Part shown: in pieces, positions 1 to 8,016 of the stretch
Numbering within the stretch: position 1 is the stretch's first letter
Layout: each line of letters begins with the position of its first letter
IMG/VR virus record: IMGVR_UViG_2585427776_000001
Source of the DNA: a virus
Taxonomy: Duplodnaviria; Heunggongvirae; Uroviricota; Caudoviricetes
Reading direction: 5' to 3' (one strand)
DNA length: 8,016 nucleotides
Made by a program: the position numbers and the translations under genes
The notes under the pieces: model-generated
The model's database searches: none
Told to the model about the DNA's origin: nothing
The model's input: the letters and a program-made list of their open reading frames with translations, nothing else

Positions 1-1255
1 AACGACCACCACGCGCCATCAATTGAACAACACGCGTGCCCAGGCGAACATCTTTCACATAGCGGGAATCAAAATTCCCCCAGTTGCTGGGTTGTATCTG
101 ACCGTTAACAGCAAATATTACTGAGTTATCTGTATTTCGCTGACTATAGAAATGCCAGCCAGAATCATCGCCAAGCTCTGCAACAGTTGGCCTTGACGAA
201 GCGCCCCATAAATTAAACCCTACGTTCTTCGTGGAGTTGTTGGAGCTGGATAGCGTGAATTTTTTACCATCCCCGGCCTGAATATTTTTAAAAGCAATAG
301 CCACTCCATTCTGAAAGCGGAATACACGCTGACTATTAGCATAAACATCCAGAATACCGTCTCCATTCTGTTTAAATCCGGTGTCATTATCACCAAGAAC
401 AATAGAGCTACCACCTAACGCATTCGTCGAACCAACTCCAAGACTGCCATTAATGACAGCATTAACCAGAATATTTAGTGCATCCCATTTCAGCGTCATC
501 AGGTCTTTTGTTGTGGTGCTTTGTTTGCTTCTCCATTTGAAATATTCATTGCCGTTGTCGCCTGTTTCAAACCACATGAATGAATCAGTGTCACCATCGG
601 CATCATTTTTAAATCCAATCTTCGCCCAGTCAGTATTTCGAATCCAGGCAAGGATTGAGTCGTTTTCAAAAGTAAGTCCACCGGATAAGGTATCGCCTGT
701 CTTTTGAACGGCGTTACCAGCCTTGTTTACCGTTTCCTGCAAACCGAGGTTTTGGATAAACAGCGGCTTATTGGGAATATCTGCTCCGTTCCGCTCTTTT
801 GCCAGACGGGCATTGGCATTATCCATCGCAATTTTCACCGCTTTTGCGGTGGCTGCCAGCGTTTCACTGGGGCTGTCAGTGGCACTGGTTAGCTGAACGA
901 GTCCTTTTTTGTTCAGGCTGGCATCATAGATATCCAGATTTTCACGTGCTGTACGCTGTGCTGATGCCCCGGCAGTTTTAATTTCGCTGAGGTTATTTTT
1001 TATCAGCAGCGCGTTCTTGTTCATGATGGCTTTAATGGACAGTGCAAGCTGGTTTAATTTTGTTTTATCCGGTTGAATACCGGCTTCTTCCAGCGTGTTT
1101 AATAACTCCGCCTGCACAATATTAAACCAGTCCATGCCGGGCCATGTGATAACATTATTCCCGTCACCTTCTGAAAACCAGCGAACGATAGCACTACGCT
1201 GGGCGGATACGGGCGGCATGACGGTTACGCCGCTGTCGTTATCAATATAAAACAT
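1..1255 (-). CDS. S: Tail fibre protein (Mu S / gp49-like), N-terminal ~417 codons; 3' end runs off the window start
   Basis: Manual minus-strand translation from ATG at 1253-1255 (MFYIDNDSGVTVMPPVSAQRSAIVRWFSEGDG...) is open with no stop down to position 2. Contains the tail-fibre repeat region (DIYDASLNKKGLVQLTSATDSPSETLAATAKAV) typical of Mu S / P1 S / P2 H-type fibres. Start overlaps the stop of the upstream gene (TAATG). Absent from the ORF track because it has no in-window stop. Confidence 0.85.
   Translation of the reverse strand, partial: MFYIDNDSGVTVMPPVSAQRSAIVRWFSEGDGNNVITWPGMDWFNIVQAELLNTLEEAGIQPDKTKLNQLALSIKAIMNKNALLIKNNLSEIKTAGASAQRTARENLDIYDASLNKKGLVQLTSATDSPSETLAATAKAVKIAMDNANARLAKERNGADIPNKPLFIQNLGLQETVNKAGNAVQKTGDTLSGGLTFENDSILAWIRNTDWAKIGFKNDADGDTDSFMWFETGDNGNEYFKWRSKQSTTTKDLMTLKWDALNILVNAVINGSLGVGSTNALGGSSIVLGDNDTGFKQNGDGILDVYANSQRVFRFQNGVAIAFKNIQAGDGKKFTLSSSNNSTKNVGFNLWGASSRPTVAELGDDSGWHFYSQRNTDNSVIFAVNGQIQPSNWGNFDSRYVKDVRLGTRVVQLMARGGR
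734..759. other. gix-like site-specific recombination site (Gin/Hin-family invertase crossover site) inside the tail-fibre gene
   Basis: 26-bp imperfect dyad TTCCTGCAAACCGAGGTTTTGGATAA with central GA core and AAACC/GGTTT inner arms. Differs at one position from the gixL sequence as I recall it (TTCCTGTAAACCGAGGTTTTGGATAA). Its position, about 170 codons into the fibre gene, is where the constant/variable boundary is expected. Confidence 0.65.
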
Positions 1256-1797
1256 TAGTTATCTCCGTCATGGTAAACAAATTTATAAATCTGATGTGCG
1301 GGTTTATATTTCTCCAGTAAACATTCCAGCGCACCCGATTCATAAACACGTAACGGCGTCAGAACATTATCCAGCACCGTTGCGTTGCGATAATTTTTAA
1401 TACCGTAAATATTGACCTGCGTAACCCACTGGCCTTCTGTGGAATCCGTCAGCCTGACGGTAAAACCGTACTGCGCAGCCAGCCATTCATAAAAGCGCCG
1501 ACTCAGATTGCCGGTCATACGCATTTTATTCGCGGCAGCCCGCTGGCGTTCGGACAGGGTGCCGTTTTCGCTTGTACAGTCCGGCAACCCCAGAAATGAT
1601 TCCCACTCCCCCAGATACCAGCGGGATGTGGAAGGGAAACGCTCCCGCAGCATTTGCCGCGCATCATCCGCCGCAGTGGCAATCACGTCGCTGATGGCCT
1701 GCGCCAGCGCAGATAATTTGCTGTCGGGGCTTTTATTCCAGGCAAGCCCTGACGGCAGTAATTGCAGAAAGGCCGTCTGATAGGGTGTTACAGCCAT
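1255..1797 (-). CDS. Baseplate wedge protein, Mu gp48 (R)-like / P2 gpI-like
   Basis: 180-aa ORF (MAVTPYQTAFLQLLPSGLAWNK...); position immediately upstream of the tail-fibre gene and downstream of the J-like gene matches Mu/P2 baseplate synteny; stop overlaps the tail-fibre start, and start overlaps the stop of the preceding gene. Confidence 0.8.
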   Translation of the reverse strand: MAVTPYQTAFLQLLPSGLAWNKSPDSKLSALAQAISDVIATAADDARQMLRERFPSTSRWYLGEWESFLGLPDCTSENGTLSERQRAAANKMRMTGNLSRRFYEWLAAQYGFTVRLTDSTEGQWVTQVNIYGIKNYRNATVLDNVLTPLRVYESGALECLLEKYKPAHQIYKFVYHDGDN

Positions 1798-2870
1798 TCA
1801 ATTGTCCCCGGTGTTAACAGTTCCGTATTCTCCGAACGCTGGATCTCTGTCGGGAAACGCACTTCAAAATCATCCAGACCGGTAACACCTGCCACCGCAC
1901 GGATAATACGGGAGGGGGCAAGTGCGCCGCCCGGCGTCACCTCATTAAAAAACATGGTATTAATGGCGTGAGTAATAGCCTGTTTCAGTTCGGCTGTCTT
2001 CGGTGATATATAAATCCGTGGATTTACCGGCTTTGCCTTTGGCGCAAATACCGTGACATATACACCATCAGGCTGTCCGACAATCAGACCAGTGATCGGG
2101 TCAGTATGACCGGCGATATAATCTGCCACACGTTCCACATCTGCCGGTTGTGGAAAAATATTGCTCCGGTTATCCATAACAAACGTCACCCCGACTGTGC
2201 CACCGCCTTTCCATGTCGGAAAACACCAGGCACGGGTAACGCCGCTGACTTCACGCGCCCAGCGAACATAATCAAACTGATTACCGCCGAACGGAGGATA
2301 CTGGACACGATATTCCAGCCGTGACAGCAGCTCCGCTGCACTCTCAATATCAGCCCCACCGGAAAACCCTTTTACAGTGATGGCATCGGAAACAACACAG
2401 GCAACCGGAGTGATCAACGTTAAAAGGGTATTCTCACCGGTATTTCCTGCTTCACCGGCAGCCAGTGCGGTAACGGTAATTTCCGTCGTTCCTGCACGGT
2501 CAATCACAATGGCATCAGCCAGGCTGTAAACCACACCATCAGCACGCTGCCAGCGTGTACCGGCAGGAATGGTGGTCGCTGCCGATGTGGTGACAGTCAG
2601 CGGGCCGCTGGCGGCTGTCGCCTGTTTGCGGCGCACGCCCCAGAACCGGCAGTGCTCCAGCAACTCATCTTCATCTGCTGTCGACGGGATAATCTGCCGT
2701 CCAACCCATGAAATATGCTCGTGACAACCGGCAGCAAGGCCCGCCTGAGCATAAGCAATGGCGCTCAGCGTTTTTTCACGGGCCTGAGGCCAGCTACCCG
2801 GCAGGCGCTGTTCAATATTCTGTTCTGTACGGGCAATCAGCGATGATAATGTCGGTGGTGAATAAGCCAT
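1788..2870 (-). CDS. Baseplate J-like protein, Mu gp47 (W)-like
   Basis: 360-aa ORF (MAYSPPTLSSLIARTEQNIEQRLPG...); size and position typical of the baseplate J family; start ATG 2868-2870 directly abuts the stop of the upstream gene (TAAATG). Confidence 0.85.
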   Translation of the reverse strand: MAYSPPTLSSLIARTEQNIEQRLPGSWPQAREKTLSAIAYAQAGLAAGCHEHISWVGRQIIPSTADEDELLEHCRFWGVRRKQATAASGPLTVTTSAATTIPAGTRWQRADGVVYSLADAIVIDRAGTTEITVTALAAGEAGNTGENTLLTLITPVACVVSDAITVKGFSGGADIESAAELLSRLEYRVQYPPFGGNQFDYVRWAREVSGVTRAWCFPTWKGGGTVGVTFVMDNRSNIFPQPADVERVADYIAGHTDPITGLIVGQPDGVYVTVFAPKAKPVNPRIYISPKTAELKQAITHAINTMFFNEVTPGGALAPSRIIRAVAGVTGLDDFEVRFPTEIQRSENTELLTPGTIEWL

Positions 2871-3308
2871 TTAAACCCCGTTAAATGCTGCTTTAAACTC
2901 ATAAGGAATAACGGAACCATCCGGTAATGTCAGTGCAATGTAGAGGTATAACCAGCCCTGATGTAACTGTTCCGCTCTGACGTTAATCGCACTTACCCGG
3001 CCCGCTGTTTTCAGCCATTCCAGCGCCTCTTCGGCATACCCTCTGGCGCGTTCCAGCGTATCCGGTGTGGCTTTTTCACGTGATAACAGCCACAACCGCG
3101 AACCGATGGGGCGGTCGCGGTAACTGTCCCCCCACCATCCACGGCGATCATCTGAACCATCCGGCAGCGTGTCAGAATCCAGCGCGCGCCGGTCGGTAAA
3201 CAGGGAGATTGTCACATCGGTTGTCAGGCTGTCGTCGGTCAGCATATCAATGCCATCCTGTGCAATATCGCCGCGCCCGTTCGTCCAGATAATGGCTAAA
3301 TCGGTCAT
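2871..3308 (-). CDS. Baseplate protein, Mu gp46 (V)-like / P2 gpW-like (phage GP46 family)
   Basis: 145-aa ORF (MTDLAIIWTNGRGDIAQDGIDMLTDD...); small acidic protein between the spike and J-like genes as in Mu/P2 baseplate operons; ATGA start/stop overlap with the upstream spike gene. Confidence 0.8.
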   Translation of the reverse strand: MTDLAIIWTNGRGDIAQDGIDMLTDDSLTTDVTISLFTDRRALDSDTLPDGSDDRRGWWGDSYRDRPIGSRLWLLSREKATPDTLERARGYAEEALEWLKTAGRVSAINVRAEQLHQGWLYLYIALTLPDGSVIPYEFKAAFNGV

Positions 3309-3898
3309 TGCATTGGCCCCGTGGTTCCGCCGCTGTCGCCACGGTGGATATGCTTATCCGTCGATTTGCCATTGATGATGGCATCCGGGGCAGTAATATT
3401 GCTGTCGAACTGGCTTTTACCTTTAACGCCCAGACCTTTCTGGATCTCAACGTCGCCGGTAAACGTGGTTCTGGGTGTGTCAACGGTCATACTTTCATCA
3501 GCGTAAACCTCGACCGTTTTACAGGTAATGATGCAGCGTCCGTCCTTTGTCAGCCTGATACGATGCCCCTCATGGTGGTAAATGCCTGCATCACCCGGTT
3601 CAAGATTTGTCGGGCGGTAGCGGCGGTCTTCCACCACAACAGCAATCCCCTGATCACGTTGTGCGCCTACACAGGCAATCAGCGCCTCTGCGCCCGGCAG
3701 GGGAACGCTGAAATGTCCGTAATTTTGCAGGCGCTCCACTTCATCGGATTCCTCATCATCCAGCAGACCGACCTGCAGGTTCTGAACTTTTCGCCCGTCG
3801 TTAATCACGTTAACAACGGCACGCGCAAGCATCAGGCGCACACGACGCATCAGCGGTGTCAGCAGGCGGTTCATGGCGGAATCATTTACTCTTTCCAC
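3305..3898 (-). CDS. Baseplate central spike / assembly protein V-like, Mu gp45 (Q)-like
   Basis: 197-aa ORF ([35 protein letters not shown]...), with a C-terminal segment ending KSTDKHIHRGDSGGTTGPMQ; size and synteny fit the gpV/gp45 spike family. Confidence 0.85.
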   Translation of the reverse strand: MERVNDSAMNRLLTPLMRRVRLMLARAVVNVINDGRKVQNLQVGLLDDEESDEVERLQNYGHFSVPLPGAEALIACVGAQRDQGIAVVVEDRRYRPTNLEPGDAGIYHHEGHRIRLTKDGRCIITCKTVEVYADESMTVDTPRTTFTGDVEIQKGLGVKGKSQFDSNITAPDAIINGKSTDKHIHRGDSGGTTGPMQ

Positions 3899-5025
3899 GG
3901 CGGCGTTTTCTCCGGGTGTCTGCGATAATAATCTTCAACCAGCGCATCAATACCGCCGTTACTGTCGCCGCCTTTCCTGTTTTTGCGGTCGCTTTCAACC
4001 GGCACCAGAAAGCCTTCGCGTGGTGCAAGGCTGACGCGGGTTTTCAGCCCGTCCTGGTCATTCAGTATCAGGGTGACTTTGCTGACCAGTAATTCTGTGG
4101 TTTTGATGGCATATTTCGAGGCATCAATAGTGACCAGCAGGTTCGGCATCCAGAGTTGCCCGTCCTTGCGTGTCCATCCGTCAATTTCTGCCTCAAAGGT
4201 GATGGATTTTGCCAGTCTGCGGCGTTGCTCACGCAGGGCGCGGGCCTGTGCATCCTTCGCCGTAATTTTGCTGTCGGCAATGATGATCATCGGTCTGTAA
4301 CGGGTCACATCACTGTCAGTGGCGGTCCCTTTCCGGGAGACGATACTTTTCGCATCAATATCATCACCCTCAGCACCATTTGCGCGGGCATACCCCTTGA
4401 CGGTGTATTCGCTGAACCGGTCGCGGAAGTCTTCCTCAAAATCCAGTGTTAGCAGATTTTCTCCGAGAACCAGCTCATCAGTGGCTGTGCTGGCAGCCCG
4501 GCTGAATACCAGCTCTCCGGCGGCATTGCTGGTCATCAGTACACCGCGTGCGCGGGAGGCACGCACCAGCGCCTCATAAACGGTTTCTGAATGGTCCAGC
4601 GTGAAGCCGGGAAAAACTGCCGAACTTTCCTTATCGGAAAGCTCCCAGCGAACGGTAACGCCATAAGGGGTGCACAGGTCACGCGCAATCTGCTCCAGTG
4701 TGCGGTTTTTCCATTGTCCGCCACTGTAAACGGCAGCACAGTCAATCAGGTCAGCCGTTTTGTCACGTCCGGCGATAGTGATTTTCATACTGTCAGCGGT
4801 CATCTGGCGTCGCCGTGAATCGATATAACCGGTGCAGACAATCTGCCCCTCGATTTCCAGCGTGAACTTCTTCCCCGGTGCCAGCCCGGATAAATCCGTG
4901 CCCGGTGGCACGTTCACCCCCAGCTCAAAATATCCGGCTACGGATTCAATCGAGCGGGTGACAGAGACTGACGTCCAGCCGGTAAAAAGCCTGCCATCCG
5001 TTCGCAGCGTGACGGTATTACTCAT
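3886..5025 (-). CDS. Baseplate hub protein, Mu gp44 (P)-like / P2 gpD-like (late control D family)
   Basis: 379-aa ORF ([37 protein letters not shown]...); position between the N-like and spike genes; overlaps both neighbours by a few codons. Confidence 0.85.
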
Positions 5026-6088
5026 TAATCACCTCAATACTGACACCACCGGGAACAAACAACGGGTTGCTGATACCGTTCCTGCGGGCCAGCCGTTGCC
5101 AGTTCCGGCTGTTTCCTGTGTAACGGTACAGAGCCACCATTGCAGGCATCGTCTCCGGCAGGCGGTGCGTTTCACTGCCCGCCAGTTGCAGCCCGCGTTT
5201 TTCCAGGTCGGCAACAACCAGCAGACGCAGTTGCGTAAGCTGAACGCTGTCTGTCGAAAAGCCCTGCTCAGATGCCGTCAGAATGACGGTATCCAGCGCT
5301 GCCCCCAGCATGGCGGCTGTTTTTCCGATATCGGACACACTTTCAAATACCGGGGGCGTGGCTGTACCACTGTCTGAAAAGGATACCTGTGAAAAGCCGC
5401 CGTCCGGGGTTATGGCAGTTAACTGTAACTGTCCCTGTGTGACGGTAGCGGATGTGCTGCTGGCCCCGCTGGCTGTGCCGGTTGTGGTGGACGGGGCATC
5501 CAGTACAGGTGCACGGGCGGCATTATCCATCCGGCGACTGAAATCCAGTGCCGCAGTCAGTGCCTGGCTTGCTGCCTCCGCCCGGTATGTCTGTGCTGCT
5601 GCCAGCATGACGTAGTTCAGTGTGGCAATATTTTTTTCTGCAACCGGACTGTTGTACGAGGTTGTGATTGTCCCCTGTCTGCCTGCGGTGGCGGCATGGC
5701 GACGTTCGAATCGCTGCGCCAGACGGTTCCATGTGGAAAATGCTGTCCGGGTATCGCATAACGATGAAACGCCGGACAGCGCCCCCATCAGCGAGGAGGC
5801 CAGCATGGCAGGCTGGTTAATCAGGCTGGTCACAGAGCCTTTCATCGCAGAAAGCGATCCCATCAGACCGCTGACAGTCTGCGTAACCCCCAGATTGTCC
5901 ACCGCATCACTGATATCATCGATGACACCGGTTACAGCTTCCATCACGGCGGTTGCCGCCGCAGTGCCATCTTTTACGGTCTGCCAGACAGAGGACAGCG
6001 TATCTCCCAGAGAACCGGTTACAGCAACGGCCTGTGCCGGTACGGCTGCACTGGTGTCTGTCTCTGCGTCCGGGGCAGTATCCTGCAA
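5018..6088 (-). pseudogene. DNA circularization protein N (Mu gp43)-like, apparently 5'-truncated remnant
   Basis: 356 codons in frame with the downstream baseplate genes (ends ...[21 protein letters not shown]). The frame stays open upstream to 6118 but has no ATG/GTG start with a Shine-Dalgarno (the track's start is a TTG), and the first ATG is about 49 codons in. The upstream end abuts the transposase remnant in another frame. Truncation is inferred from my recollection that Mu N is considerably longer; this needs alignment to confirm. Confidence 0.6.
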
Positions 6089-6095
6089 CGACGGA

Positions 6096-6218
6096 TATCT
6101 GTCGAAACACCCACTGTTCTAACCTTGCTTTACGAGAGATCGCGCTAGAGGATTTTGGAAGACCTATCAGCCCTTCTAATTTCTTTGCAGAAAACCAATC
6201 ATTACATTGTGGTTGCAT
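6096..6218 (-). pseudogene. A: Transposase A N-terminal fragment (about 40 codons of the operator/enhancer-binding winged-helix domain), fused out of frame to the N remnant
   Basis: ATG at 6216-6218, 2 nt after the ner stop. [41 protein letters not shown] is clearly paralogous to the repressor N-terminus in this same window ([35 protein letters not shown]), as expected for the Mu/D108 A and c pair. Similarity stops after about codon 41 and the reading frame then runs through the N remnant in a different frame (track ORF 5916..6224). Confidence 0.65.
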
Positions 6219-6220
6219 TT

Positions 6221-6439
6221 TCAATACCTCGAAGGCCAGATGTCTCGTGGCTCAACTCCCAATGCATCGGCAATGATTCTTTCCCCCCGAGGGTAAGGTT
6301 TATCCAAGGCATTTTTTACCGTAGAGATAGAGAGACCGTTCTCACGACCAAGAGCTGCTAGGCTTTTTCCTCTTTTGCGCAGATCAGCAACAATGTCGTA
6401 TCTACTTTTGTCTTCACATTTACTTTTCTTTATCGCCAT
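6221..6439 (-). CDS. ner: Ner-family DNA-binding transcriptional regulator (Mu Ner / Nlp-like)
   Basis: 72 aa from ATG 6437-6439 ([72 protein letters not shown]), with GAGGA 9 nt upstream. The C-terminal WPSRY and overall pattern match the Ner/Nlp family; divergent from the repressor gene as in Mu. The track ORF starts 3 codons earlier at a TTG. Confidence 0.85.
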
Positions 6440-6448
6440 AAAATGCAA

Positions 6449-6639
6449 TCCTCACAAGCTACGCCATCAGCTACGCCGCAAGGTAGCTGATAAGGTATGC
6501 AGCAATGCTAGTGTGAATACATTGTCAATGCAATAGTGTATTCAAATGTTTTGTTTGAAATTCATCTATCTCGATGATTTTAAAGTGAATATATTTTTCA
6601 TTTCTTTGAATACATCGTGTATTTAAAGCGAGGTTTGTG
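6449..6639. promoter_or_regulatory. Divergent early-promoter/operator region between ner and c (Pe/Pc with operator repeats)
   Basis: AT-rich 190-bp intergenic region with repeated TGAATAYA motifs: TGAATACA 6514-6521 paired with inverted TGTATTCA 6537-6544; TGAATACA 6607-6614 paired with inverted TGTATTTA 6618-6625; TGAATATA 6586-6593. A TTGACA hexamer on the minus strand (plus 6523-6528) lies between the first pair. Exact promoter elements and transcription start sites are not determined. Confidence 0.5.
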
Positions 6640-7155
6640 ATGACACAAGAATGGTTTTCAGCTAAAGAGCTACAAGGGGTTGCTGGTCTTCCGTCTTCAG
6701 CAAGTAGTATTAGCCGCAAAGCAACTAATGAGGGATGGAAAAAGAGACAGATCAAAGGAGTAAAGGGTGTTGCTTATGAATACCATATCAGCTCATTACC
6801 TGATGCCACTCAGGCAGAATTAGGAGGGGCGCAGTTATTAGATAACGATAAGTCAGCTTATAAGTTAGCTTCTGTGTTAATGGCTTTGGTTGCAGAGTTA
6901 GAACCAGAGGAAATCCAGAGGGCATTAAAGCTACTTAGTAAAGGTGGACTTAGTGCACTAATGCCAAGTATCTTTGATCAGACTCAAATCCAATCTCTGC
7001 ACGGCGTATCGCGTGAGTGCATACAACTCGCCCAAATGCTAGAAACTTTACCAGCAGAAGAGCGCAAAGAGATTTTGTCAGAGCATGGTATTCATGAACA
7101 GGAAAGTCTTGTAGCTCCTTCGCAAGAACCACAAGATGTAAAAAAAGCCGTATAA
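6640..7155 (+). CDS. c: Prophage repressor c (Mu Repc-family; immunity specificity appears non-Mu, possibly D108-type)
   Basis: 171 aa from ATG 6640 (GAGG 7 nt upstream; track ORF starts one codon earlier at GTG 6637). N-terminal winged-helix domain paralogous to the A remnant; C-terminus (...[29 protein letters not shown]) resembles the Mu repressor C-terminal tail as I recall it; transcribed toward the Mu left end as in Mu. Confidence 0.85.
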
Positions 7156-7321
7156 CAACCATGAACCAGCTAAAACATACTTCACCTCACATAATCACAC
7201 ATGTAACATACCTAAACGGCATGAGCTGATTTGTGATATGAGTCATTTGGTTACAGCCTGGTTGTTATCGGTTTTGAACGTTTTTTGAAGCTGTTATTGA
7301 AATGATTTGCAGTGTTTTTGT

Positions 7322-7493
7322 TTTTCGTATTTTCAATGAAACAAAAGCAATTTTTTACTATCTTTCGCGTTTCATTGATTAACGACTAAAATTTGCGCTA
7401 CAGGCTTGCAAGCCCCACCAAATCTAATCCCATCAGATCCCGAATAATCCAATGTCCTCCCGGTTTTTTTCGTACTTCAAGTGAATCAATACA
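7322..7493. repeat. Mu-type left end (attL) with three MuA-binding-like repeats (L3-like 7322-7340, L2-like 7362-7379, L1-like 7467-7485) and terminal ...CA at 7492-7493
   Basis: On the bottom strand the three copies align as TTCACTTGAAGTACGAAAA (L1), ATCAATGAAACGCGAAAG (L2) and TTCATTGAAAATACGAAAA (L3). Their spacing from the terminus (about 9-27, 115-132 and 154-172 bp) matches the L1/L2/L3 arrangement known for Mu. Confidence 0.8.
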
Positions 7494-7762
7494 CCGACAA
7501 TAAGCTTTATACCGGGATCACCACGGATGTCGAACGCCGCTATCAGCAGCACCAAAGCGGCAAAGGGGCGAAAGCACTGCGCGGGAAAGGAGAACTAACG
7601 CTGGTGTTTTCCGCGCCAGTGGGCGATCGTTCGCTGGCGTTACGGGCGGAATATCGCGTTAAGCAACTGACCAAACGGCAAAAAGAGCGTCTGGTAGCGG
7701 AAGGCGCAGGGTTTGCAGAGCTGTTAAGCAGTCTGCAAACCCCGGAGATTAAAAGCGATTGA
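7494..7762 (+). pseudogene. yhbQ: yhbQ (GIY-YIG nuclease-superfamily protein, UPF0213), 5'-truncated by the prophage insertion
   Basis: Host-derived reading frame ...[88 protein letters not shown] matches E. coli YhbQ as I recall it from about residue 12 onward. The first ~11 codons are replaced by Mu-end sequence (track ORF 7481..7762 starts at a GTG inside the Mu end). Confidence 0.75.
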
Positions 7763-8016
7763 AATGCTCGTGATACTCAACCAGGCCGGTAACGCCATTC
7801 AGCGCGTCATCCGCTAAACGATGTACCTGGAAGGCGCTTTCAGTGCCCGGCCAGCGGCAACGCAGATCGTGATGCGCCGCCAGTTCAAAGCCGAAACGAC
7901 TGTACAGCGCCGGATCGCCCAGCGTCACCACTGCGGCATAGCCGAACTCATTAAGCGAATCGAGTCCTTCATAGACCAGTTGGCGTGCCAGCCCCTGTCC
8001 ACGGTATTTTTCATCA
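7749..8016 (-). CDS. yhbS: yhbS, GNAT-family N-acetyltransferase, C-terminal part (N-terminus beyond window end)
   Basis: Minus-strand frame open from the window end ([88 protein letters not shown], stop 7749-7751); convergent with yhbQ and overlapping its 3' end, as in the E. coli yhbQ-yhbS locus. Confidence 0.8.

What the first reader, a model, noticed from the sequence alone, without database searches (positions are those of the whole stretch)
1..760. gix-like crossover site inside the tail-fibre gene: window start lies within an invertible host-range segment
A 26-bp dyad at 734-759 closely resembles the Gin/Hin-family crossover site and sits about 170 codons into the S-like fibre gene, at the expected constant/variable boundary. 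Positions 1 to about 746 are therefore probably part of an invertible G-type segment. In that case the fibre C-terminal domain encoded here is only one of two alternative receptor-binding domains and the population may be heterogeneous for orientation. The fibre module is the part of this degraded prophage still capable of programmed variation, provided gin survives beyond the window.
Basis: partly seen in the sequence, partly recalled or inferred. Interest (0 to 1): 0.45.

Follow-up and report, generated by a model that had tools for sequence, protein, structure and literature searches.

The report
Phage Mu-type tail-fibre inversion site
The 26-base site is a genuine phage Mu-type gix crossover site at the constant/variable junction of the tail-fibre gene, so the first 746 bases are one arm of the textbook invertible G segment; it is real but ordinary, and it sits in a prophage remnant that can no longer make fibres.

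Summary
Confirmed, and already known biology. Window 734-759 (TTCCTGCAAACCGAGGTTTTGGATAA) is unique in the window. It differs by one base from both gix sites of phage Mu. Its central GA (746-747) falls at fibre-gene nucleotides 509-510, codon 170, which is where Mu's G-segment boundary is annotated.

Intact copies of the same phage (0 mismatches over 5,360 nt) carry an inverted partner site about 3 kb away, next to a Gin invertase 192/193 identical to Mu Gin. Those copies occur in both orientations, and the 3,037-bp interval is an exact flip. Marker SNPs place the crossover inside window 732-753.

The window is an entire 8,016-bp contig (JOQP01000044.1). Partner site and gin therefore cannot be inspected on it. 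Contigs from sister assemblies of the same degraded prophage stop exactly where the two arms diverge (window 732). One of them is a k=31 assembly, in which the 22-28-nt perfect repeat cannot cause a break. This suggests both orientations were present in the reads.

A deletion of about 25.7 kb removed the transposase, the late activator C and the head and tail genes. Any continuing flipping is probably phenotypically silent.

The parts
734..759 (.). 26-bp gix-type crossover site, equivalent to the gix copy inside Mu gene S: two imperfect 12-bp half-sites around a central GA
   Evidence: Unique in the window. One mismatch to both Mu gix sites. An inverted partner with one mismatch lies about 3 kb away in identical or near-identical intact phages.
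746..747 (.). Central dinucleotide GA, the expected point of staggered cleavage and strand exchange
   Evidence: Marker SNPs bracket the crossover to window 732-753 in two independent pairs of genomes. Mu's G-segment boundary is annotated at the equivalent base. The exact cleavage position is inferred from the known family mechanism.
705..759 (.). High-identity arm of the inverted repeat: 55 nt with 2 differences from the partner arm. The weaker repeat extends to 675.
   Evidence: 85-nt inverted repeat at 82% in L001. Arm alignment shows perfect stretches of 5, 22 and 26 nt separated by two SNPs. BLAST matches of opposite-orientation genomes break at window 705.
747..1255 (-). Constant part (Sc) of the S-like tail-fibre gene, codons 1-170, outside the invertible segment
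   Evidence: Open frame from the ATG at 1255. 167/170 identical to Mu S. Pfam Phage_fiber_2 at residues 113-153.
1..746 (-). Variable part (Sv) of the fibre gene, codons 170-418, inside the invertible segment. It is truncated by the contig end; 42 codons and the chaperone gene are missing.
   Evidence: 0 of 731 mismatches to the same-orientation intact phage L014, whose S is 460 aa. 61% identical to Mu Sv(G+) and 40% to Mu S'v. Pfam Gp34_trimer at residues 210-281.
1255..5025 (-). Context: intact baseplate genes (gp44-, gp45-, gp46-, gp47- and gp48-like) upstream of the fibre gene
   Evidence: ORFs. Pfam families. 0 mismatches to intact phages.
6096..6097 (.). Context: junction of an internal deletion of about 25.7 kb. 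It joins the 5' stub of the transposase A gene to the DNA-circularization gene and creates a 356-aa truncated ORF (5018-6088).
   Evidence: The two blocks match separately in intact relatives. Their spacing and the intervening genes are seen in NZ_AP045177.1.
6221..7493 (.). Context: Mu-type left end with ner-like (6221-6448, minus) and repressor c-like (6637-7155, plus) genes. The phage terminus is at 7493, inserted in yhbQ.
   Evidence: Pfam HTH_35 and HTH_Tnp_Mu_1 on the called genes. Matches to prophage left ends stop at about 7494-7500. The terminal sequence was read directly. Recognition of it as the Mu terminus is from memory.

Best explanation
Window 734-759 is the fibre-gene copy of the two gix crossover sites of a Mu-family G segment. 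In the intact phage, a Gin serine invertase encoded just outside the segment binds both inverted sites. With the host factor Fis bound to an enhancer in the 5' part of gin, it cleaves at the central GA, rotates the subunits and religates. This flips about 3 kb. The flip swaps which of two variable fibre C-termini, each with its own chaperone, is fused in frame to the constant 170 codons, and so switches host range. The window carries orientation 'A'. The prophage here is a recent single-deletion derivative: about 25.7 kb are missing but there are no point mutations. The segment probably still flips in this lineage. The flip probably has no phenotype, because the late activator C and the virion genes are gone. 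Shown: site identity, site position, exact inversions in identical phages, and crossover within 732-753. Inferred: presence of gin and the partner site in the source strain, continued flipping there, and lack of fibre expression.
For: - **Site:** unique in the window and 25/26 identical to Mu gix.
- **Position:** equals Mu's annotated G boundary.
- **Layout in relatives:** L001 and L014 have S, U, inverted U' and S', the partner site, a Resolvase+HTH_7 invertase, com and mom. The invertase is 192/193 identical to Mu Gin and has Ser9. The partner site plus gin region is 689/720 nt identical to Mu.
- **Esc31 versus Esc30:** 0 mismatches in 16,356 nt of flanks, and the 3,037-bp interval is an exact inversion. 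The outer-arm SNP stays put and the inner SNP moves.
- **L014 versus L015-L017:** the same result, and these phages have 0 mismatches to the window over 5,360 nt.
- **Complete E. coli genomes:** 6 are in state A and 4 in state B.
- **Contig ends:** sister contigs of the same degraded prophage (L023 from NCBI, L024 from Logan run SRR1186685) end at window 732, the last base before the arms differ. Logan uses k=31 (PMC12424806). Perfect arm identity is at most 26 nt.
- **Single copy:** contigs run unbroken through the deletion junction, so no second phage copy explains the break.
Against: - The window is a whole contig, so neither gin nor the partner site is seen in the source assembly.
- The window contig reads straight through the site in one orientation.
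- One sister contig (L025) ends elsewhere, at S nucleotide 261, for unknown reasons.
- A second prophage in the same genome that shares at least 30 nt ending at window 732 could also create the assembly branch. Related sites exist in lambdoid prophages.
- No reads were examined.
Confidence: 0.9

Rival explanations
1. Frozen relic. The site is a true gix site by descent, but in the source strain the partner site or gin was lost, like the 25.7-kb block. The segment is locked in orientation A unless another prophage supplies an invertase and a partner site.
For: The prophage is already damaged by a large deletion. The window contig passes through the site in a single orientation. Frozen versions exist elsewhere: EC958 has a truncated invertase pseudogene beside homologous cassettes.
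Against: There are no point mutations against the intact phage over 6,091 nt, so decay is minimal. Contigs of the same lineage end exactly at the arm-divergence base in both an NCBI and a k=31 Logan assembly. A locked segment does not predict that.
Confidence: 0.2
2. The contig ends at the site are assembly artefacts from repeated crossover sites in other prophages of the same genome. They do not reflect orientation heterogeneity of this segment. The site is still a gix site, but nothing is known about its current activity.
For: Homologous cassettes and related sites occur in hundreds of non-Mu prophage fibre genes. The assembler and k-mer size of the NCBI assemblies are unknown.
Against: At k=31, a second locus sharing sequence outward beyond the site would end the Sc contig about 30 nt after the first shared base, before window 732. 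The observed end is exactly the base before the G/A difference that distinguishes the two arms of this phage. The EC958-type site differs at 3 of 26 positions.
Confidence: 0.15
3. Chance dyad with no recombination function.
For: The dyad symmetry alone is weak, 7 of 12 positions, and the inverted-repeat scan did not report it.
Against: The site is 25/26 identical to Mu gix, and shuffles give no match even at 3 mismatches. Inversion end points map inside it in two independent genome pairs.
Confidence: 0.01

Closest known systems
Phage Mu G segment with Gin invertase and gix sites (also phage D108)
   Same: The site is 25/26 identical. The position in gene S is the same (nt 509). Sc is 167/170 identical. 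Relatives share the S-U-U'-S'-gin-com-mom order, and their Gin is 192/193 identical. The segment length is the same: 3,037 bp between outer site ends here, and 3,084 bp by the same measure in Mu from the site coordinates.
   Different: The variable cassettes differ. The window's Sv is 61% identical to Mu Sv(G+), and the alternative Sv is about 40% identical to either Mu cassette. Relatives carry an extra 148-aa ORF beyond mom. The copy in the window has lost about 25.7 kb, including A, B, C and the virion genes.
Other Din-family inversion switches: P1 C segment (Cin/cix), e14 P segment (Pin/pix), Salmonella Hin/hix
   Same: The kind of system is the same: a serine invertase, 26-bp sites in inverted orientation, a Fis-dependent enhancer, and (for P1 and e14) swapping of fibre C-termini. 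Cross-complementation among these invertases is established knowledge and was not tested here. Homologous cassettes bounded by a related site occur in a lambdoid prophage of EC958.
   Different: The constant fibre parts and the phage backbones differ. Hin controls a flagellin promoter, not a fibre gene. The window element is of the Mu lineage, not one of these.

Membership tests
Gin/Hin (Din) serine-invertase DNA inversion system | 26-bp crossover site made of two imperfect 12-bp half-sites around a 2-bp core, matching the family site | tested here: met
   Window 734-759 is 25/26 identical to both Mu gix sites read from AF083977. 7 of 12 half-site positions are symmetric, and the core is GA.
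Gin/Hin (Din) serine-invertase DNA inversion system | A second site in inverted orientation with the same asymmetric core, on the same molecule | not testable with these tools
   The window is a complete 8,016-bp contig, and the other contigs of the assembly could not be reached. In identical intact phages the partner lies 3,011 nt away, inverted, with one mismatch and the same core.
Gin/Hin (Din) serine-invertase DNA inversion system | Adjacent serine invertase gene (Resolvase catalytic domain with the Ser9 nucleophile, plus a C-terminal HTH) | not testable with these tools
   It is not on the window contig. In relatives L001 and L014 it shows Pfam Resolvase (7e-50) and HTH_7 (2.4e-17), has Ser9 and is 192/193 identical to Mu Gin.
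Gin/Hin (Din) serine-invertase DNA inversion system | Fis-dependent recombinational enhancer in cis (inside the 5' part of gin in Mu) | not tested
   Only sequence conservation was seen. The partner site plus gin 5' region of L014 is 286/300 nt identical to Mu. Fis binding and enhancer function were not examined, and the region lies outside the window.
Gin/Hin (Din) serine-invertase DNA inversion system | The DNA between the sites is actually found in both orientations, with the exchange inside the sites | tested here: met
   This is met for identical or near-identical phages: Esc31 versus Esc30, and L014 versus L015-L017. The inversions are exact and the crossover is bracketed to window 732-753. 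For the source lineage it is only inferred, from contig ends at window 732.
Mu-type host-range switch (G segment) | The site lies in frame at the junction of a constant fibre N-terminus and alternative C-termini, each followed by its own chaperone gene | tested here: met
   The core is at codon 170. Sc is 98% identical to Mu and Sv 61%. In L014 and L015 the alternative S proteins are 460 and 511 aa, and two Caudo_TAP chaperones face each other.
Muvirus-type transposable prophage | Mu-type left end with c and ner, Mu-like baseplate and fibre genes, and insertion at varied chromosomal sites | tested here: met
   Pfam HTH_Tnp_Mu_1, HTH_35, Phage_Mu_Gp45, GP46, Baseplate_J and Phage_Mu_Gp48 are present. 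The DNA matches Mu, D108 and SfMu. Identical phages lie at different loci. The copy in the window is defective.

The most novel reading that the evidence does not exclude
A non-inducible remnant that has lost its transposase, late activator and virion genes keeps flipping its fibre segment. On this reading it is retained because the baseplate-fibre-gin module does something for the host or for a co-resident phage. It might supply alternative fibres or chaperones in trans, or Gin might act on other sites in the genome. The perfect sequence preservation and the contig branching do not exclude this. They are explained more simply by a very recent deletion.
Probability: 0.04. Interest if true: 0.35.

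Novelty: already known. Interest (0 to 1): 0.08.

Why it matters
The practical value is limited.

- **Annotation:** the fibre gene on this contig is one of two alternative forms.
- **Assembly:** short-read assemblies of strains carrying this phage break at the site.
- **Strain comparison:** differences between strains at this locus can be programmed flips rather than mutations.
- **Method:** a contig that ends at the exact base where two repeat arms diverge, in a k=31 assembly, is a cheap sign of an active inversion switch.

Nothing here changes what is known about Gin/gix biology.

Tried and rejected
- **Species-representative genomes:** a scan with the fibre protein did not find the source genome. 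It gave only distant or partial relatives.
- **Homology search:** a search to obtain a permitted handle returned a cluster representative only 99% identical, which is useless for an exact lookup. I ran no further search on this.
- **Inverted-repeat scan of the window:** it did not report the site, because its dyad symmetry is too weak. The site is recognised by similarity to gix, not by symmetry.
- **Second phage copy:** I considered that the contig breaks come from a second copy of the phage. I rejected this because contigs run unbroken through the unique deletion junction.
- **Local repeat at the window start:** I looked for a local repeat that would explain why the window contig ends at position 1. 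There is none of 18 nt or more within the phage locus.

Full report
**The observation.** The window carries Mu-like late genes on its minus strand. The fibre gene starts at 1255, where its ATG overlaps the stop of the gp48-like gene. It stays open for 418 codons until it runs off the window start. The 26-mer TTCCTGCAAACCGAGGTTTTGGATAA lies at 734-759. It is unique in the window even at three mismatches, and 200 shuffles gave no match. Its dyad symmetry is modest, 7 of 12 half-site positions around a central GA, and a generic inverted-repeat scan missed it. It is recognisable because both gix sites in the phage Mu genome record (AF083977) read TTCCTGTAAACCGAGGTTTTGGATAA, one base different. The central GA at 746-747 corresponds to fibre nucleotides 509-510, codon 170. 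Mu's record marks its G-segment boundary at S nucleotide 509. The protein is 167/170 identical to Mu S before the site and 61% identical after it.

**What lies around such a site in relatives.** No complete E. coli RefSeq genome has the window's overall arrangement, but many carry the same phage. In strain Esc31 (98.5% identical over window 1-6097) the region past the window start holds the rest of S, a chaperone gene and an inverted second chaperone gene. Next come an inverted fibre C-terminal ORF and an inverted copy of the site with one mismatch. Then come a recombinase gene, com and mom. The two site regions form an 85-nt inverted repeat. The recombinase has Resolvase and HTH_7 domains, has Ser9, and is 192/193 identical to Mu Gin. 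The region from the partner site through gin is 689/720 nt identical to Mu. This is the Mu G-segment layout.

**Direct evidence of inversion.**
- Esc30 is a near-identical strain with the same prophage in the same gene. Its flanks show 0 mismatches to Esc31 over 4,018 and 12,338 nt.
- The 3,037 bp between the outer ends of the two sites is an exact reverse complement, apart from one polymorphic base in each outer half-site. That base stays with the flank. A polymorphism 3 nt inside the site moves with the segment.
- Together these place the exchange within window 732-753, an interval that contains the central GA.
- An exact-protein lookup then found intact copies of the very same phage at other chromosomal sites. 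They show 0 mismatches to the window over 5,360 nt, from the circularization gene to the site.
- L014 continues exactly like the window (0 of 731 mismatches). L015-L018 continue with unrelated sequence. L014 versus L015-L017 is again an exact 3,037-bp flip with the same marker behaviour.
- In one state S is 460 aa and in the other 511 aa. The variable parts are 47% identical to each other.
- Among complete genomes, 6 carry the window's state and 4 the other.

**The source.** The 356-aa ORF created by the deletion is unique to this defective prophage. Looking it up returned four contigs. One is GCA_000714145.1 JOQP01000044.1, 8,016 bp long and identical to the reverse complement of the window. 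The window is therefore a whole contig. I could not reach the other contigs of that assembly.

**Indirect evidence on activity in this lineage.**
- Three sister contigs carry the same yhbQ insertion and the same deletion, with 0-1 mismatches to the window.
- Two of them end at window 732. One is an NCBI assembly. The other is a Logan assembly of run SRR1186685, seen in three samples. Window 732 is two bases past the inner edge of the site and is the last base before the G/A difference between the two arms.
- A Logan contig of an intact copy (L019) ends at the same base. L018 ends at the mirror position in the partner site.
- Logan contigs are built with 31-mers (PMC12424806). The arms share perfect stretches of only 5, 22 and 26 nt, so the inverted repeat alone cannot create a branch at k=31.
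- Contigs run unbroken through the deletion junction, so there is no second copy of the phage.
- The simplest reading is that the reads contained the same constant part joined to both inner arms, meaning both orientations were present. This is an inference. No reads were examined, and a second prophage sharing 30 nt or more at this point is not fully excluded. Related sites do exist in lambdoid prophages, for example in EC958.
- The window contig itself reads through the site in one orientation.

**Functional context.** Window 6096/6097 is a deletion junction. In an intact relative the two blocks are about 25.7 kb apart. The missing interval holds most of the transposase gene, the B-like ATPase and the early genes. 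It also holds both Mor-family activators (one is the counterpart of Mu's late activator C), the lysis and head genes, sheath, tube, tape measure and the 5' part of the circularization gene. From established Mu biology, late operons including S and U need C. The fibre gene is therefore probably silent here, and no particle could be built in any case. The absence of any point mutation relative to the intact phage shows that the deletion is recent. That makes it likely, but not proven, that the gin side is still intact.

**Comparison and verdict.** This is the Mu G-segment host-range switch, in a Mu-family prophage whose variable cassettes differ from Mu's own. Related phages with the same segment are already in GenBank, including D108, SfMu and several Mu-like phages isolated on Yersinia. 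The finding is real, well explained and already known, so interest is low.

Noticed in passing
window 1-8016: The window is identical to the reverse complement of a complete contig, JOQP01000044.1 of GCA_000714145.1 (8,016 bp). Both window ends are contig ends, not arbitrary cuts.
   Followed up: yes
window 6096-6097 (ORF 5018-6088, minus strand): An internal deletion of about 25.7 kb joins the first ~130 nt of the transposase A gene to the DNA-circularization gene. It leaves a 356-aa N-terminally truncated ORF that is unique to this lineage. The late activator C and all head and tail-tube genes are lost.
   Followed up: yes
window 7459-7500 (ORF 7481-7762, plus strand): The Mu-type left terminus (...CGTACTTCAAGTGAATCAATACA) ends at 7493, inside yhbQ. 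The first codons of yhbQ are replaced by phage-end sequence.
   Followed up: partly
window 1-6097 versus L014: There are no nucleotide differences from intact copies of the phage over 6,091 nt. The same phage sits at different chromosomal sites in other assemblies (near wzz/ugd, betT and pheL/raiA). It is therefore a recently active transposable phage, and the deletion is recent.
   Followed up: partly
window 1 and L025 end (fibre nt 261 = window 995): The window contig ends at fibre nucleotide 1255 and a sister contig ends at nucleotide 261. Neither end is at the crossover site, and there is no repeat of 18 nt or more within the phage locus. The cause is unknown; it may be repeats elsewhere in the genome or low coverage.
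   Followed up: partly
window 1-480 versus 480-732: Many E. coli genomes, such as strain W, match the window from 480 to 6097 but not 1-479. The variable fibre part is therefore itself mosaic, with a separately exchanged distal tip.
   Followed up: no
L028 (E. coli EC958) 2200-5547: Cassettes 99% identical to the alternative fibre arm occur in a lambdoid prophage of ST131 and in hundreds of other genomes. They are bounded by a related site (5515-5540, 3 mismatches) and lie near a truncated invertase pseudogene. This looks like a frozen inversion switch that shares cassettes with the Mu-like phage.
   Followed up: partly
L003 (JQCU01000606.1, 361 bp): A 361-bp contig filed under Acinetobacter idrijaensis encodes a stretch 93% identical to fibre residues 226-344. 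It is most likely contamination of that assembly.
   Followed up: no
L014 16770-17216 and 15203-15820: The intact relatives carry a 148-aa ORF beyond mom that Mu lacks; its hydrophobic N-terminus looks like a signal peptide. The called length of Gin varies: 193 aa in Mu, 197 aa in L001 and 205 aa in L014.
   Followed up: partly
phage records H46-H48: Mu-like phages isolated on Yersinia pestis EV76 (vB_YpM_3, vB_YpM_23, Tongde) carry a G segment 94-99.6% identical to this E. coli prophage's segment.
   Followed up: no
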